Assembly (NCBI RefSeq): GCF_009914755.1
Contig: NC_060928.1
DNA from: the human T2T-CHM13v2.0 reference genome, Homo sapiens
Reading direction: 5' to 3' (one strand)
DNA: 64,000 nucleotides
Of the stretch, positions 42,143 through 49,900 are shown one piece after another. A program made the position numbers and the translations under genes. The notes under the pieces were generated by a model, which had not been told where the DNA came from, made no database searches, and was given only the letters and a program-made list of their open reading frames with translations. Position 1 is the first letter of the stretch, and each line of letters opens with the position of its first letter.

Positions 42143-42568
42143 TGTCTTAGTTCATTTAGTGTTGCTAAGCAGAACACCCGAGGATGGGTACTTTATAAAG
42201 AAAATAGGTTGATTTGACTCATGATTCTGAAGGCTGGAAAATATAAGAGCATGATACTTGCATCTGATCAGCTTCTGGGGAGGGCCATGTGCTGTGTCAA
42301 GACATGGCAGAGAAGTGGAACACTGAGGGGACATATGCAAAGAGACAAACACTAAAGGCTGGGCTTACTTCATAATGCCTGTTCTTGCAGTAACTTATCC
42401 AGTCCTGTGAGAGTGAAAACTTACTCTCATAAGATGGCATGAATCAATTCATGAGGGATCTGCCTCCATGGTCCAAAGACCTCCTATTAGGCTCCACCTC
42501 CCAATGCTGCTGCACTGGTAATTAAACTTCATGAGTTTTTGTGGTGACAAAATCCAAACCACATCACA
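42143..42568 (-). mobile_element. MST/MLT1A-type MaLR LTR
   Basis: tgtcttagttcattt...ctcatgattctgaaggctgg...ccacctcccaa. Confidence 0.75.
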
Positions 42569-42581
42569 TAGTAACTTGAAA

Positions 42582-42643
42582 AAATTGCTATTCATAAATG
42601 GCATCTACCTCAGAAATAATTCTTTGAGTTAGGTGGACAGCCT
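42582..42643 (+). repeat. Dispersed direct repeat, copy 1 (partner 46423-46484)
   Basis: aaattgctattcataaatggcatctacctcagaaataattctttgagttaggtggacagcct; ~55/63 identical to copy 2 by hand alignment. Confidence 0.85.
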
Positions 42644-43289
42644 TGCCTTATGGCCAATATATCCCTGTTGAGGTTATGTATATTGGAGATCTCAGTCATT
42701 AATTTGGGTGCACTTTGGAGTGCAGAAGAGAAACACAAAAATAACCACTGGATTCTGATAGAGACAGAAATGTACTGAGGTCCGTAGTGTAACCATCATA
42801 ATAGAACGGTCAGTCAAAGCTTGAGGGATGGCAGATATTACTTGTCATGAAATGGGTAGGCAACTCTAGAACTTCATAATTAAATAGAAATAGTATCATC
42901 TTAGAGAACTGTTCAGAATCAACACCCTTGTGTGTTGAGTCTATGGGTATGGTCTTTGGAAAGAGACACAATATATCTTTAGACTGAAGACCATAGGATG
43001 ACTCTGTGGAATGCTGTCCTTGTCATTCAGGATGCTGGCTGCTCAGCTGTTAAATAGCTAATGTTCATTTGGTATAATGCCATTTTTCTGTTACATGCAT
43101 CGTATGTAGGATACTTGTTTATATTATATGTATTTTAAATCTTGTCAGTCTATTCCTCATTTCTTTTAACATCTTTCATATTTTATGACTCTCACTGTGC
43201 TGTGTCCTTGTGGATTTTGTAGTTATATTTTTCAAGTATTCATTTTTAAATTCAATTATTTGTAGTTGTTTGCACATTTTTCTCAGTTG

Positions 43290-43587
<298 letters not shown>

Positions 43588-43939
43588 AAGTTTTAAATGT
43601 CAATGAAAATATTTTTTGTTTCTAGGATTCTGATGAATTCTTTTCCATATTTGTGATTCTTTCACATATTCATCTGCTTTATTTAGATTTTGAAAAGGGG
43701 ATATCATTTTCACCACTAATTCTTTCAGGTCTTAAATATACTTGTTTTTAGGCGTTTCTCATATTGCTTTCTTATTTTCATCTTCATGAGAGTGAATTCC
43801 CATCTGTTGAGCTTCTCTTGGCCCATATTTCATAGTGTCTGCTTTCCCCATGTCTTTGACATTTTGAATGGGTAGTGTTTTCTCTCCTAGTACTCTCTCC
43901 TTTCTTCTGGCAGTATTCATTGCTTCCTCCAAAATTCCA

Positions 43940-45633
43940 AGAGAGGTAGAATCAGCTCTGCTGTAGAGGTTTGTGGCTCTTGTCCACAGGATGTCACAGA
44001 TGGGCTCCCACAGCCTTGGGCAGCTCCACCTATGTGGCTTTGAAGGGTATAGCCCCGCTTCTGGCTGCTTTCACAGGCCGGTGTTGGGTGTCTGTGGCTT
44101 TTTCAGGTGCTGGTGTTGAGTGTCTGCTTTCACAGGCTGGTGTTGAGGGTCTGCGGCTCTTCCAGGTGCACCGTGCAAGTTGTCAGTGGATCTACCATTC
44201 TGGGGTCTGGAGGACAGTGGCCCTCTTCTCACAGCTCCAGTAGGAAGTGCCCCACTGAGGACCCTGTGTGGGGGCTCCTACCCCACATTTCCCTTCCATA
44301 CTGCCCTACTTGAGGTTCTCCATGAGGTCCCCCACCCCCACAGCAAATTTCTGCCTAGACATCCAGGTGTTTCCATACATCCTCTAAAATCTAGGCAGAG
44401 GTTCCCAAACCTCAATTCTTGACTTCTTTCCACCCTCAGACTCAACACCATGTAGAAGCTTCCAAGGCTTGGGGCTTGCACCCTCTGAAGCCATGGCCCG
44501 AGCTGTACTTTGGCTCCTTTTAGCCACAGCTGGAGCTGGGACACAAGGGCATGAAGTCCTTAGGCTGCACACAGCAGGGGGGCCCTGGACCTGGCCCATG
44601 GAACCATTTTTTCCAACTAGGCCTCCAGGCCTGTGATGGGAGGGGCTTTCATGAAGGTCTCTGACATGCCCCGGAGACATTTTCCCCATTGTTTTGGTGA
44701 TTAACATTCAGCTCCTTGTTACTTATGCCAATTTATGCAGAGGCTTGAATTTCTCCCCAGCAAATGGGTTTTTCTTTTCTATCACATGGTTAGCTGCAAA
44801 ATTTCAAAACTTTTATTCTCTGCTTCCACTTGAACACTTTTCCGCTTAGAAATTTCTTCCACCAGATACCCTAAATCATCTCTCTCAAGGTCGAAGTTCC
44901 ACAGATCTCTAGGGCAGGAGCAAAATGCCTCCAGTGTCTGCTAAAGGATAACAAGTGTCACCTTTGCTTCAGTTCCCGACAAGTTCCTCATCCCCATCTG
45001 AAACCACCTCAGCCTGGACTTTATTGTTCATATCACTATCAGCATTTTGGTCAAAACCATTCGACAAGTCTCCAGGAAGTTCCAAACTTTCCTGCATCTT
45101 CCGTCTTCTGAGCCCTCCGAGTCTCTAGGAAGTTCCAAACTTTCCCACATTTTTCTGTCTTCTTCTGAGCCCTCCAAACTGTTCCAACCTCTGCTTGTTA
45201 CCCAGTTCCAAAGTCTGCTTCCATATTTTTGGGTATCTTAATAGAAATACCCCACTCTACCAGTACCAATTTACTGTATTAATCCATTTTCATGCAGCTA
45301 TGAAGACATACATAACACTGGGTAATTTATAAAGAAAAAGAGGTTTAATGGACTGACAGTTCCACATGGCTGAGGCTTCACAATCATGGCAGAAGGGGAA
45401 GGAGGAGCAAAGGCATGTCTTATATGGTGGCAGACAAGAGAATGTGTGCAGGGGAACTGCCCTTTATAAAATTATCAGATCTTGTGAGACGTATTCACTA
45501 TCACAAGAACAGCATGGGAAAAACACGCCCCCATGATTCAATTACCTCCCATGTTGTCCCTCCCATGACATGTGGGGATTATGAGAGCTACAATTCAAGA
45601 TGAGATTTGGATGGGACACAGTGAAACCATATC
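43940..45633 (-). mobile_element. THE1C-like element: 5' LTR (45276-45633) plus truncated internal region
   Basis: LTR ggagcaaaggcatgtctt...tgtgtgcaggggaactgccctttataaa; internal cagtggatctaccattctggggtctggaggac; no second LTR seen. Confidence 0.85.
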
Positions 45634-46008
45634 AGTCCTATTCCCTTGCAGGTGTTGAAATACCAGAAGTCATCCAAAAGATTTTAAATAAAGACAAATA
45701 GTTGGGAAAAAAAAAAGAAGAAGAAGACATAGTAACAGTGCTGTGTTGAGTATGTTGGAGTTGGGGCAAAATAAAACATCCTCGTTCCCTATCTCTTTGT
45801 ATTTAAATGGTTGATATTTATTCGTCTTGGAATTGCTGCTTCAATTTTTACATTTTAAATATTCTATAGAAATTCATTCATTCTGATAACTGAGATTTTG
45901 GTGCCTTTTCTAATTTTGTGCTGGAGGCTCCTTGCCTCCCTAGTCTCATCTGGTCCAGGTTCTTCCTCCCTGTTCACAAGTGACCAATGTCTTTGTTTTC
46001 TTTTCTAG

Positions 46009-46297
46009 GCTTGGAATATTCTCAATGGCTATCAAGGCCACCATGTGGAGCAGTGCTTCCTGGACCTGGTTTCTTCTTGGCATCTGGACCTGGCCCAGTG
46101 CTACAGGATCACCTGCTTCATCTCCTGGAGCTCCTGCTTCAACTGTGCCCAGGAAATGGCTGGGTTCCTGAGGGAGAATAGACACATGAGCTTGCGCATC
46201 TTCACTGCCTGCACCTATGATTACCACCCAGGATATGAGGAGAGGCTGCACATGCTGCAGGGAACTGGGGCCCAAATTTCCATCATGACCTCTATGG
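46009..46297 (+). pseudogene. APOBEC3AP1: Orphan APOBEC3 Z1-type catalytic exon (unprocessed fragment with flanking intron, ~45920-46420)
   Basis: ttttctag|[97 protein letters not shown]|gtaaga. Contains H-x-E-x27-S-C-x2-C and aligns with A3A and the A3G C-terminal domain. The gene symbol is from memory and must be verified. Confidence 0.92.
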
Positions 46298-46422
46298 GTA
46301 AGAATGGAAACTTTGGGTGGGCTGGGGTGTGTTGGGGCAGGGAGAGGAAAGTTACTAGAAAGGCAGGGAGGGTCGGTATCCCTGTGCAAAAAGCCTTGGT
46401 TGGCTGCCTGCAGAGGCTTATG

Positions 46423-46484
46423 AAATTGCTGTTCATAAATGGAATCCATTCAGAAACAATTCTTTGAGTTAGGGTGGACAGCCT
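46423..46484 (+). repeat. Dispersed direct repeat, copy 2, directly after the APOBEC3 intron remnant
   Basis: aaattgctgttcataaatggaatccattcagaaacaattctttgagttagggtggacagcct. Confidence 0.85.
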
Positions 46485-46949: not shown

Positions 46950-49900
46950 AGTGGAGAGGTGGAGCAAGATGGCCAAGTGAACCCTCCAGTGATTGTCCCC
47001 TCCTACAGGAACACCAAAGTGAACAACTATGCCCACAAGAAAGCACCTTCATAAGAACTAAAAATCAGAGAAGCAATCACAGTACCTGGTTTTAATGTCA
47101 TGTCAAGGAAAGAGGCACGAAAGAGAGTAGGAAAGACAGTCTTGAATTGCCTACATCACCCCTCCCCTTTCCCTCAGCAGTGGCTGTGTGGCATGGAGAG
47201 AGCATCTGTGTGCTTGCAGGAGGGAGAGTGCAGTGATTGTGGGATCTTGCATTGAAACTCAGTGCTGCTCTGTCACAGCAGAAAGCAACATAGACAGAAT
47301 TCAGCTGCTAAGTGCCCACGGAGGGACCATTTAGACCAGCCCTAGCCAAAGGGGAATTGTCCATGCCAGTGGTCAGAAACTCAGTTCTGTTTAGCCCCAC
47401 TTACCATGAGCTAAAGCACTCTGTAGTCCCAAATAAATTTGAAAGGCAGTCTAGGCCACAAGGACCGCAATTCCTGGGCAAGTTCTGGTGCGGTGTTGGG
47501 CTCAGAGCCACTCACAGGACTTGCAGTGCGTGTGACCCAGTGAGACACCAGCTGGGGTGGCCAAAGGAGTGCTAGTGTCACCCCTCTCCTAACTCCAGAA
47601 AGCACAGCTTGCAGCTCTAGGAGAGACTCCTTTTGGTTGAGGAAAGGAAAGGGAAGAGTAAAGAGGATTTTGTCTGGCAACTGGGATACCAGCCCAGCCA
47701 CAGTAACATAAAACAACAAGCAGATCCCTGAAGTCTCCATTCCAGGCCCTAGCTCCTGGATAACATTTCTAGACCCACCTTGGGCCAGAAAAGAACCTGT
47801 TACCCTGAAGGAAAAAACAAAGTCCTGGAAGAACTCACCACCTGCTGACTAAAGAGCCCGTAGTCCTTGAATAAACATTAGTAGCAGCCAGGCAGTACTC
47901 ATCACAGACCTAGAACAGTGACGGCCATGGGAAAAGACTCTTTTTGAAGAAAGGAGAGGGAGGAGTAAAAAGGACTTTGTCTTGCAAATTGGGTTGCAGC
48001 TCAGCTATAGTAAAATAAGACACCAAGTAGATTCCTAAAGTCCCCAGTTCTAGGCCTTAGTTCCTGGACAATATTTCTAGACCCAGTCTGGGCCAGAATG
48101 GAAGCTGCTATACTGATGTGAAGGACTCAGTCCTGGCAGGATTCACCATCTTCTGAGTAAAGAGCCCCTGGGCCTGAAATAAACATCAGTGGTAGCTAGG
48201 CAGTTATTGCCAGTGGCCTGGTGATGGCCATGTGAAGAGATTCCTTCTGCTTGAGGAAGGAAGAGGAAAGAGTTAAAAGGATTTTGTCTTGCAACTTCAG
48301 TACCAGCTCAGCCACAGTAAAATGAAGCTCCAAGTAGATTCCTGAAGTTCTTCAATCCAGGCCCTAGTTCCTGGACATTTCTAGACCCACCCTGGGCCAG
48401 AGGGGAGCTTACTGTACTGAAGAGACGGACTCAGTCCTGGCAGGATTCACCATCTGCTAACTAAAGAGTCCCTGGGTCTTGAACAAACATCAGCAGTGGC
48501 CAGGCAGTAGTCGTGAAGGGCCTGGGACAGCGGTGGCCATGGGGAGAAACTGTTTCTGCCTGAGGAAAGGAAAAGAAAGAGTAAAAAGGACTTTGTCTTG
48601 CAACCTGGGTACTACCTCAGCTACAGTAAAATGAAGCACCAAGTAGATTTCTAACATTCCTGATTCTAGGCCCTAATTCCTGGACAACATTTCTAGACCC
48701 TCTCCTGTGGCCATCACCATCCCAGGCCCCGGGCAACTACTGCCTGGCTACAACTGATGTTTGTTCAAGGCCCAAGGGCTCTTTAACCAGCAAGTGGTGA
48801 ATCCAGCCAGGACTGGGTCCTTCCCTTTAGATAGCAGGCTCCCTTCTTGTTCCAGGGTAGACAGAGGTGGGAGGATTGTTTGAGCTTTTGAGCCTGGGAG
48901 GCAAAGGTTGCAGTGAGCCAAGATTGCATCACTGCATTCAAGCCTGGGTGACAGAGTGAGACTCTGTTTCAAAAAAAAAAAAAAGAAAAAAGAAAAAAGA
49001 AAAAAAAGAAAAGAAAAAGCAATGAAATGTTTAAAAAATGAAAATTAAATTAAAAAAAGGAAAATGAAGGAAAAGGATGTTAATGAGCAATCAGAGATCA
49101 TCTGAAGCTACAAAACTCACTGGTAATAGACAAATACAGAATATTATAATACCGTATTGTAGTGTGTTAACTACTCATATCTTGAGTAGAAAGGCTAAAA
49201 GACAAATCTATCGAAAATAACTACAACAACTTTTTAAGACATAGACAAAATAATGATATATAAATAGAAAAAACAAAGTTAAAAAGCAGGGTGGAAGATG
49301 AAGTTAAAGTATAGAGGTTTTATTAGTTTTTTCTTTGCTTGTGGTTTGTTTTTTCAATCAGTTAAGTTGTTATCAGTTTAAAATAATGGGTTATAGAATG
49401 TCATTAAGCATAATGGTTACTTCAAATAAGCAACCTACAACAGACACACAAAAAATGAAAGGCAAGAAATTAAAACATACCACCAGAGAATATCAATTTC
49501 ACAAAAAAGGAAGGCAAGAAAGAGAGAAGGAAGACAGGAAGAAGGGAAGGAAGGAAGGAAGGAAAGAATGAAGGAAGAAGAAAGAGAAGGCCACAGAATA
49601 AGCAGAAAACAAATAACAAAATGGTAGTAAGTTCTGATTTGTTAATGATAACATTGATAAAGTTGAAGGTAAATGGACTAAACTCTCCAATCAAAAGACA
49701 AAGAGAGGCTGAATGGATGAAAAAAAGTAGGACCCAATAATGATCTGTTGCCTACAAGAAACACACTTCACCTATAAAGACACGCATTGACTGAAAATAA
49801 AGGGATGGAAAAAGATATTCCATGCTAATGGAAACCATGGAAACCAAAAAGAGAGCAAGAGTAGCAATACTTATATTAGATAAAATATATTTCAAGACAA

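What the first reader, a model, noticed from the sequence alone, without database searches (positions are those of the whole stretch)
45920..46420. Orphan, intron-flanked APOBEC3 Z1 catalytic exon with an open frame and intact splice sites, ~10 kb upstream of AADAT
Seen: a 289-nt exon (46009-46297) bounded by a pyrimidine-tract ttttctag acceptor (phase 0) and a G|gtaaga donor (phase 1). It has 96 codons with no stop or frameshift. It keeps H-V-E, FISWS and C-F-N-C, i.e. all three Zn ligands plus the catalytic Glu. Known: canonical APOBEC3 genes form a single cluster on chr22, and dispersed copies are normally intronless retrocopies. The exon boundaries and the flanking intron text (gtaagaatggaa...gccttggt.ggctgcctgcaga; tggtccagg..ccctgttcac) match my recollection of the A3A/A3G Z1 exon. 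Inference: this is a DNA-level or pre-mRNA-derived transfer of a ~500-bp genomic piece. I found neither the preceding (TYLCYEV) nor the following (F..CW..FV) exon in the window. Several substitutions look like CpG decay (HAE>HVE, R>H before it, RIY>CTY) and PC>SC is lost, which favours a pseudogene. It may already be annotated as APOBEC3AP1.
Basis: partly seen in the sequence, partly recalled or inferred. Interest (0 to 1): 0.85.

Follow-up and report, generated by a model that had tools for sequence, protein, structure and literature searches.

The report
Dead single-exon APOBEC3 pseudogene fragment
A 681-base piece of an old APOBEC3 antiviral gene (one exon with bits of both neighbouring introns) was pasted into chromosome 4 in an ancestor of apes and Old World monkeys; it is an already annotated, apparently dead relic.

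Summary
Window 46009-46297 is an open 96-codon copy of the APOBEC3 Z1 catalytic exon with AG|G and G|GTAAGA splice sites. Homology to the chr22 genes runs into both introns. The A3-derived piece is 45737-46417, 681 bp: 272 nt of upstream intron, the exon, and 120 nt of downstream intron. It is the only A3-like piece in the 64 kb.

A second, uninterrupted copy of the flanks lies at 42566-42643. It shows a clean insertion with no target-site duplication, poly(A) or microhomology. That fits capture of a DNA or pre-mRNA-derived patch at a chromosome break, not LINE-1 retrocopying.

The piece looks neutral. Its changes fall 16/14/12 over codon positions, pN/pS is 0.82 (p=0.57), and its branch length equals that of the chr12 retro-pseudogene A3I. 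An open frame is expected by chance in 22-55% of simulations. The Pro of PCxxC and the Arg and Ile of the Z1 RIY motif are lost.

RefSeq annotates it as APOBEC3AP1. Ito et al. 2020 list copies in gorilla and two Old World monkeys. It is ordinary and already known.

The parts
45737..46008 (+). 272 nt derived from the intron upstream of an APOBEC3 Z1 catalytic exon, including the polypyrimidine tract and AG acceptor
   Evidence: blastn homology to the chr22 A3A-like and A3B-like loci starts at 45737. MAFFT alignment A1. 75-76% identity to A3A/B over 256 aligned nt. 45878-45929 is 86% identical to the A3G intron.
46009..46297 (+). Copy of the Z1 catalytic exon: 289 nt, 96 open codons plus 1 nt. 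It has H-V-E and C-x2-C. Pro>Ser in PCxxC, and RIY>CTY.
   Evidence: Placed in the Z1 clade with 100/99 support. 78.5% identical to A3A, 73.6% to A3G-CTD and 80% to the chr12 A3I Z1 exon. RefSeq pseudogene APOBEC3AP1 46009..46295 (hub table).
46298..46417 (+). 120 nt derived from the downstream intron, beginning with the GTAAGA donor
   Evidence: Homology to A3G runs to 46417 and to A3A/B to 46347 and beyond, across an A3A/B-specific deletion. K2P distances are 0.28-0.29 to A3A/B and A3G.
45727..45736 (.). Left target flank: a 10-mer that abuts the insert
   Evidence: The identical 10-mer lies at 42566-42575, directly next to the counterpart of the right flank.
46418..46484 (.). Right target flank, resuming directly after the insert
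   Evidence: 89% identical to 42582-42643. These are the only two copies in the genome.
42566..42643 (.). Paralogous uninterrupted ('empty') copy of the target site, 3.1 kb upstream
   Evidence: Here the 10-mer and the right-flank sequence are contiguous, which fixes the insert's ends.

Best explanation
This is a non-functional, unprocessed pseudogene fragment, APOBEC3AP1.

Origin. In an ancestor of catarrhine primates, a 681-bp stretch of an APOBEC3 Z1-type gene was inserted into a chromosome break on what is now chr4. The stretch held the end of one intron, the catalytic exon and the start of the next intron. It was either a DNA fragment or a cDNA patch made from unspliced pre-mRNA, and it was sealed in by end joining. 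This is the kind of event described as a class 2 templated sequence insertion.

Source. The source was a Z1 exon of the A3A/A3B lineage, with weak support. The copy was taken before that lineage gained its 6-nt insertion and a 23-nt intron deletion.

Fate. Since insertion the piece has drifted neutrally. Its open frame and splice sites are inherited and have survived by chance. It cannot make a deaminase, because it encodes only 96 residues of a domain that is about 190-200 residues long in the solved A3A and A3B/A3G C-terminal-domain chains. It has also lost the Pro of PCxxC and the Arg and Ile of RIY.

What is shown: homology, boundaries, absence of LINE-1 hallmarks, neutral pattern, and listed copies in gorilla and two Old World monkeys. 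What is inferred: the break-repair mechanism, DNA versus RNA template, the source paralogue and the date.
For: 1. Intron, exon and intron are all homologous to chr22 Z1 exons: 45737-46347 at 76.7% to A3A/B and 45993-46417 at 74.9% to A3G.

2. It is the only non-Alu interval of the window that matches the A3A and A3G gene regions or the chr12 copy.

3. The paralogous empty site at 42566-42643 has the 10-mer and the right flank adjacent. In the filled site they are separated by exactly 45737-46417. There is no duplicated target bases, no A-tail after 46417 and no microhomology. The flank has 2 copies genome-wide.

4. Class 2 templated insertions are described as lacking TSD, poly(A) signal and poly(A) tract, and as using intronic templates among others (PMC5110952, passages read).

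5. Neutrality. 42 chr4-lineage changes fall 16/14/12 on codon positions (chi-square p=0.75). 32 are non-synonymous and 10 synonymous, giving pN/pS 0.82 (binomial p=0.57). The end branch is 0.11, equal to that of the intronless chr12 pseudogene (0.11); the live genes have 0.18-0.19.

6. P(no stop) after 25-42 random substitutions is 0.22-0.55.

7. Listed copies. Gorilla chr4:180679154-180679436 differs at 2 of 283 positions by my eye. Chlorocebus differs at about 15 of 274 by my eye, about 5.5%. I recall roughly 6-7% as the neutral ape to Old World monkey divergence; that figure comes from no call.

8. Source. 11 informative sites group chr4 with A3A, against 6 for chr4 with chr12 and 5 for chr4 with A3G.
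Against: No orthologous pre-insertion site from another species was examined. The boundaries rest on a paralogous copy in the same window, and that local duplication is itself unexplained.

The A3 piece sits 10 nt inside the second copy, next to an A-rich/(GAA)n tract (45706-45726). A single complex rearrangement therefore cannot be excluded.

DNA and RNA templates cannot be told apart from sequence.

By my reading of alignment A1, about 4-5 chr4-lineage indels lie in 392 nt of intron. The absence of any frameshift in the 289-nt exon is therefore somewhat lucky, roughly 0.1 by my estimate. Together with no stop, that gives a few percent, after post-hoc selection of an open exon.

No expression data could be consulted.

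Placement inside the Z1 clade is a polytomy (supports 58/70 and 48/45).
Confidence: 0.75

Rival explanations
1. One complex replicative rearrangement made everything at once. Template switching of the MMBIR/FoSTeS type created both the local duplication (42566-42643 versus 45727-45736 plus 46418-46484) and the chr22-derived insert in a single DNA-level event.
For: The A3 piece lies inside the second copy of a duplication that occurs only twice in the genome. The two flank copies differ by about 11%. The divergence of the A3 piece is of the same order.
Against: The template would have had to return to exactly the next nucleotide after 681 nt. There is no microhomology at either junction. Two successive events explain the same picture.
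Confidence: 0.1
2. It is the last remnant of a larger segmental duplication of an A3 gene onto chr4. The rest was later deleted.
For: Unprocessed pseudogenes commonly arise by segmental duplication. The divergence is old enough for decay.
Against: Both ends of the A3 homology coincide to the base with a site that is contiguous in the paralogous copy. No other A3-like stretch was found in 64 kb.
Confidence: 0.06
3. LINE-1-mediated insertion of an unspliced, cryptically polyadenylated pre-mRNA fragment (class 1 templated insertion), or a 3' transduction.
For: An AATAAA and an A-rich/(GAA)n run lie at 45689-45726, just left of the piece. LINE-1 was active at the time, as shown by the chr12 A3I retrocopy.
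Against: The A-run is on the 5' side of the sense-strand insert, where a tail cannot be. The 3' end at 46417 joins the flank directly. There is no target-site duplication. The 3 kb to the left has no parent elsewhere in the genome.
Confidence: 0.04
4. The exon is in use. Selection keeps it open and spliceable as part of a chr4 transcript, for example one running divergently from the AADAT promoter. It would yield a truncated deaminase-like peptide or a regulatory RNA.
For: Acceptor, donor and 96 codons are intact in human. By my eye they are also open in the Chlorocebus, Cercocebus and gorilla sequences. The joint chance of no stop and no frameshift is only a few percent by my estimate.
Against: Codon-position and pN/pS patterns are neutral. 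The branch length equals that of a known dead retrocopy. Key residues are lost. No transcript is annotated there (hub table). 96 residues are only about half of the domain seen in the solved structures.
Confidence: 0.04

Closest known systems
Catalytic (Z1) exon of human APOBEC3A / APOBEC3B C-terminal domain on chr22 (own-genome C22:39431567-39432122 and C22:39461541-39462096)
   Same: Same exon with the same AG|G and G|GT boundaries. 78.5% nucleotide and about 58% protein identity. 272 nt of continuous upstream-intron homology. The HxE and two Cys ligands are present.
   Different: The chr4 copy lacks the 6-nt insertion between the two Cys and keeps a 23-nt intron block that A3A/B have lost. 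It stands alone without the other exons. It has Pro>Ser and RIY>CTY. It lies outside the chr22 cluster.
A3I, the ancient intronless A3G-like retrocopy on chr12 (Yang et al. 2020, PMC7263822; section 5 read)
   Same: A dispersed, dead APOBEC3 copy. It is the closest relative of the chr4 exon by identity (80%). It has the same end-branch length of 0.11 and the same parallel Arg>Cys CpG decay.
   Different: A3I is a processed two-domain copy: seven exon blocks abut without introns, and it carries a TAA stop in this exon. The chr4 piece is one exon with intron flanks. Yang et al. write that they found 'exactly one' shared region outside the A3 locus, so the chr4 piece is not in their account.
Class 2 templated sequence insertions: DNA or cDNA patches captured at double-strand breaks (Onozawa and Aplan 2016, PMC5110952; passages read)
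   Same: A short piece copied from a distant transcribed region. No target-site duplication, no poly(A) signal or tail. The donor locus remains intact.
   Different: Those are described as recent human polymorphisms, often with microhomology or added bases at the junctions. This one is fixed, is listed in gorilla and two Old World monkeys as well as human, and shows neither microhomology nor filler.

Membership tests
APOBEC3 Z1 deaminase domain (as a sequence relative) | Groups with Z1 exons rather than with Z2, Z3 or AID | tested here: met
   The ML tree of 14 human Z-domain exons puts it in the Z1 clade with 100/99 support. The best PDB matches are A3G-CTD, A3A and A3B-CTD.
APOBEC3 Z1 deaminase domain (as a working enzyme) | Zinc motif H-x-E ... 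P-C-x2-4-C | tested here: not met
   H-V-E and C-F-N-C are present, but the Pro is Ser (CCC>TCC at 46132).
APOBEC3 Z1 deaminase domain (as a working enzyme) | Z1-specific R-I-Y motif after the zinc ligands. The definition of this motif is recalled from the A3 nomenclature literature, not read here. | tested here: not met
   It reads C-T-Y (CGC>TGC at 46210, ATC>ACC at 46214).
APOBEC3 Z1 deaminase domain (as a working enzyme) | A complete domain of about 190-200 residues, encoded by several exons | tested here: not met
   Only 96 codons are present. No other A3-like stretch was found in the 64 kb. The solved A3A and CTD chains are 185-207 residues long.
Processed pseudogene / LINE-1 retrocopy | Intronless, with a 3' poly(A) tail and a target-site duplication | tested here: not met
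   Intron sequence lies on both sides. There is no A-tail after 46417 and no TSD relative to the paralogous empty site.
Unprocessed (duplicated) pseudogene fragment | Keeps intron sequence and exon boundaries of the parent, is partial, and evolves neutrally | tested here: met
Class 2 templated sequence insertion (break-repair patch) | No TSD, no poly(A), donor retained, junctions made by end joining | tested here: inconclusive
   The first three features are met against a paralogous empty site, and the donor-type loci are intact on chr22. An orthologous pre-insertion site was not available, and the junctions show no microhomology or filler either way.

The most novel reading that the evidence does not exclude
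The exon is not dead. It has stayed open and spliceable in the catarrhine copies I read because it is spliced into a chr4 transcript, for instance one running divergently from the AADAT promoter 5.5 kb away. That would give a truncated APOBEC-like peptide or a regulatory RNA. A milder and likelier version, about 0.3, is that it is a neutral fossil of a Z1 paralogue whose chr22 descendant was since overwritten, so it preserves ancestral exon and intron states.
Probability: 0.04. Interest if true: 0.6.

Novelty: already known. Interest (0 to 1): 0.18.

Why it matters
It matters little for function. It is a small, datable molecular fossil.

- It shows that an antiviral gene fragment moved between chromosomes by a route other than LINE-1 retrocopying. 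Retrocopying is the only route discussed for dispersed A3 copies in the two surveys I read (PMC7263822, PMC6955324).
- It preserves an early Z1 exon and about 390 nt of its introns in a neutrally evolving state. Those states predate the 6-nt insertion, the 23-nt intron deletion and the A3A/A3B homogenisation seen on chr22. That could help to polarise changes in the fast-evolving live genes.
- For annotation: the label 'Intact' in Ito et al.'s Dataset S3 should not be read as functional. The chr12 row, whose listed sequence carries an in-frame TAA, has the same label.

Tried and rejected

- 'APOBEC3AP1' in the paper library: 0 papers. Searches on A3 pseudogenes and chromosomes 4 and 12 and on A3I/Catarrhini gave nothing on this locus. 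PMC9706992 mentions no chr4 copy.

- Idea that the AATAAA and A-rich run at 45689-45726 is the tail of a 3-kb retro-insert (42644-45726) flanked by a very long TSD. Rejected as unsupported: 42650-43285 and 45636-45740 have no other copy in the genome. 43625-44125 matches only a high-copy repeat. The A-rich tract may instead correspond to the A-rich end of the repeat in the first copy.

- Helitron-like or DNA-transposon capture. Considered and dropped: no terminal inverted repeats or TSD are seen.

- A3G upstream intron. MAFFT misaligned it because of two Alu insertions (41% 'identity'). It was redone piecewise.

- Part 24 of Dataset S3 was read by mistake (rows 592-617) and holds no primate rows. 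By eye, the elephant Z1 row shares with chr4 the run that encodes V-S-S-W-H-L-D. That hints that chr4 keeps ancestral states.

- I did not see human row 584 itself. I saw only its label 'outside canonical region' in Dataset S4.

- No structure or complex prediction was run, because none would change the reading.

Full report
**What is there.** Window 46009-46297 (+ strand) is a 289-nt stretch. It is bounded by a strong acceptor (16 of 19 pyrimidines, then AG|G) and a G|GTAAGA donor. It reads as 96 codons without a stop.

- The translation matches the APOBEC Pfam families at E 4.5e-28 to 2.4e-24.
- Among solved structures it matches best the Z1-type domains A3G-CTD, A3A and A3B-CTD.
- In a maximum-likelihood tree of 14 human Z-domain exons it falls in the Z1 clade with 100/99 support.
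- H-V-E and the two Cys are present.
- By parsimony against the other human Z1 exons, the Pro of PCxxC has become Ser and the RIY motif has become CTY.

**It is unprocessed.** A DNA search of the window's own genome finds three chr22 loci: A3A-like, A3B-CTD-like and A3G-CTD-like. Their similarity runs well outside the exon. It also finds a chr12 locus whose similarity stops at the exon ends.

- Sensitive blastn and MAFFT put the ends of the homology at 45737 and 46417. That is 272 nt of upstream intron, the exon, and 120 nt of downstream intron, 681 bp in all.
- In A3G the upstream intron is interrupted by two Alu elements, but the pieces between them still align at 86% and 91%.
- Blastn and tblastx of the whole window against the A3A gene region, the A3G gene region and the chr12 copy give only Alu-type intervals besides 45737-46417. 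No neighbouring A3 exon is present.
- The chr12 locus is seven A3G-like exon blocks abutting without introns. This is the A3I retrocopy of Yang et al. 2020 (PMC7263822, section 5 read).

**How it got there.** The 62 nt that follow the insert (46423-46484) are 89% identical to window 42582-42643. Genome-wide these are the only two copies.

- In the upstream copy this sequence is directly preceded by a 10-mer (42566-42575). The same 10-mer directly precedes the A3 piece at 45727-45736.
- The upstream copy therefore acts as a paralogous empty site. Removing 45737-46417 restores its arrangement.
- There is no target-site duplication, no A-tail after 46417, no microhomology and no filler.
- An A-rich/(GAA)n run with an AATAAA lies to the left of the piece, on the wrong side to be a tail. 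The 3 kb between the two flank copies has no parent elsewhere in the genome.
- These features exclude a LINE-1-mediated retrocopy. They fit capture of a patch at a double-strand break, sealed by end joining. This is the class 2 templated insertion described by Onozawa and Aplan, for which intronic templates and an RNA origin are reported (PMC5110952, passages read).

Whether the template was DNA or unspliced pre-mRNA cannot be told from the sequence. The local duplication itself is unexplained, and a single complex event remains possible.

**Source and age.**
- In the downstream intron the three lineages are equidistant: K2P is 0.28-0.29 for chr4 to A3A/B, 0.29 for chr4 to A3G, and 0.27-0.28 for A3A/B to A3G.
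- In the tree the Z1 clade is an unresolved fan. The end branches are 0.11 (chr4), 0.11 (chr12 A3I), 0.19 (A3G) and 0.18 (A3A/B).
- Informative sites weakly favour chr4 with A3A/B: 11, against 6 and 5 for the alternatives. This agrees with the gene symbol.
- The chr4 copy lacks the 6-nt insertion of A3A/B and keeps a 23-nt intron block that they lost. It was therefore copied before those changes.
- The branch length equals that of A3I, which Yang et al. date to the simian ancestor about 43 million years ago. That suggests a similar order of age.

Evidence from Ito et al. 2020 (PMC6955324):
- Dataset S4 labels Homo_sapiens|A3Z1|5 'outside canonical region'. I did not see that row's coordinates.
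- Dataset S3 lists gorilla chr4:180679154-180679436, which differs at 2 of 283 positions by my eye. It also lists Cercocebus and Chlorocebus copies; Chlorocebus differs at about 15 of 274 by my eye.
- A 24-mer from the exon occurs in 16 rows of Dataset S3. I saw three of those rows. The study holds 18 catarrhine genomes.
- The 26 marmoset rows (106-131) contain the A3I orthologue on chr9 but nothing like the chr4 piece.

So the insert is at least as old as the ape to Old World monkey ancestor. I recall that split as roughly 25-30 million years ago. The insert may postdate the split from New World monkeys, or it may have been lost in marmoset. That marmoset chr3 is the syntenic chromosome is also recalled, not tested.

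**Is it alive?**
- The 42 changes assigned to the chr4 lineage fall 16/14/12 on codon positions (p=0.75). 32 are non-synonymous and 10 synonymous, with 229 non-synonymous and 59 synonymous sites, giving pN/pS 0.82 (p=0.57).
- In simulations with 25-42 random substitutions and CpG bias, the frame stayed free of stops in 22-55% of runs.
- The lack of a frameshift is somewhat lucky. By my reading of alignment A1, about 4-5 chr4-lineage indels lie in 392 nt of intron, two of them multiples of three. That gives roughly a 0.1 chance of none in the exon. The chr12 copy also has no frameshift in this exon, only a 3-nt deletion and a TAA.
- The human versus Chlorocebus differences are about two non-synonymous to one synonymous by my eye. 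That is too few to test.
- A 96-residue piece lacks about half of the deaminase domain seen in the solved structures.
- No transcript is annotated here (hub table).

I conclude that it is a neutral relic. Expression was not testable with these tools.

**Novelty.** The locus is annotated in RefSeq as APOBEC3AP1 and catalogued in the supplementary datasets of Ito et al. 2020.

- It is not discussed in the parts of PMC6955324 that I read. I read only the passages returned for six search terms, not the whole text, and its SI Appendix PDF could not be read.
- Yang et al. report 'exactly one' extra-locus region.
- 'APOBEC3AP1' occurs in no paper of the searched library.

New here, in a small way, are the exact boundaries, the paralogous empty site, the non-LINE-1 mode of insertion and the neutrality tests.

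Noticed in passing
window 42566-42643 versus 45727-45736 plus 46418-46484: A short local duplication whose right part has only these two copies in the whole genome (89% identical). The copies lie 3.1 kb apart and have no detectable parent elsewhere. The A3 piece sits 10 nt inside the second copy. How the duplication arose is unexplained.
   Followed up: partly
window 44121-45638: A roughly 1.5-kb interspersed element with an LTR-like 364-bp end (45275-45638). All 40 scored genomic copies are 75-86% identical. It looks like a MaLR-type ERV-L element on the minus strand; that label is recalled from its termini, as no repeat library was available. The stretch ending near 42573-42576 is the end of another, older repeat family.
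   Followed up: partly
window 47622-48713: A tandem array of a 307-bp unit, 3.5 copies, 76% matches. A partial inverted copy follows at 48708-48858.
   Followed up: partly
L064 (G000:C12:108249172-108250444): In the chr12 A3I retrocopy the exon blocks differ strongly in identity to human A3G: 94.7% for the 114-nt block after the Z1 catalytic exon, but 78% for the catalytic exon itself and 74-84% for the others. This suggests very uneven evolution or gene conversion in A3G.
   Followed up: no
L002 versus L003 (G000:C22:39431567-39432122 and C22:39461541-39462096): A3A and the A3B C-terminal-domain exon with its flanking introns are 99% identical (3 differences in 349 intron nt, 1 in 289 exon nt). 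The older A3B-type Z1 sequence is therefore not preserved in this genome.
   Followed up: no
PMC6955324 Dataset S3, rows 569 and 128: The label 'Intact' is given to the chr12 (A3I) Z1 rows of human and marmoset, although the listed sequences carry an in-frame TAA. The label is not evidence of an open reading frame.
   Followed up: partly
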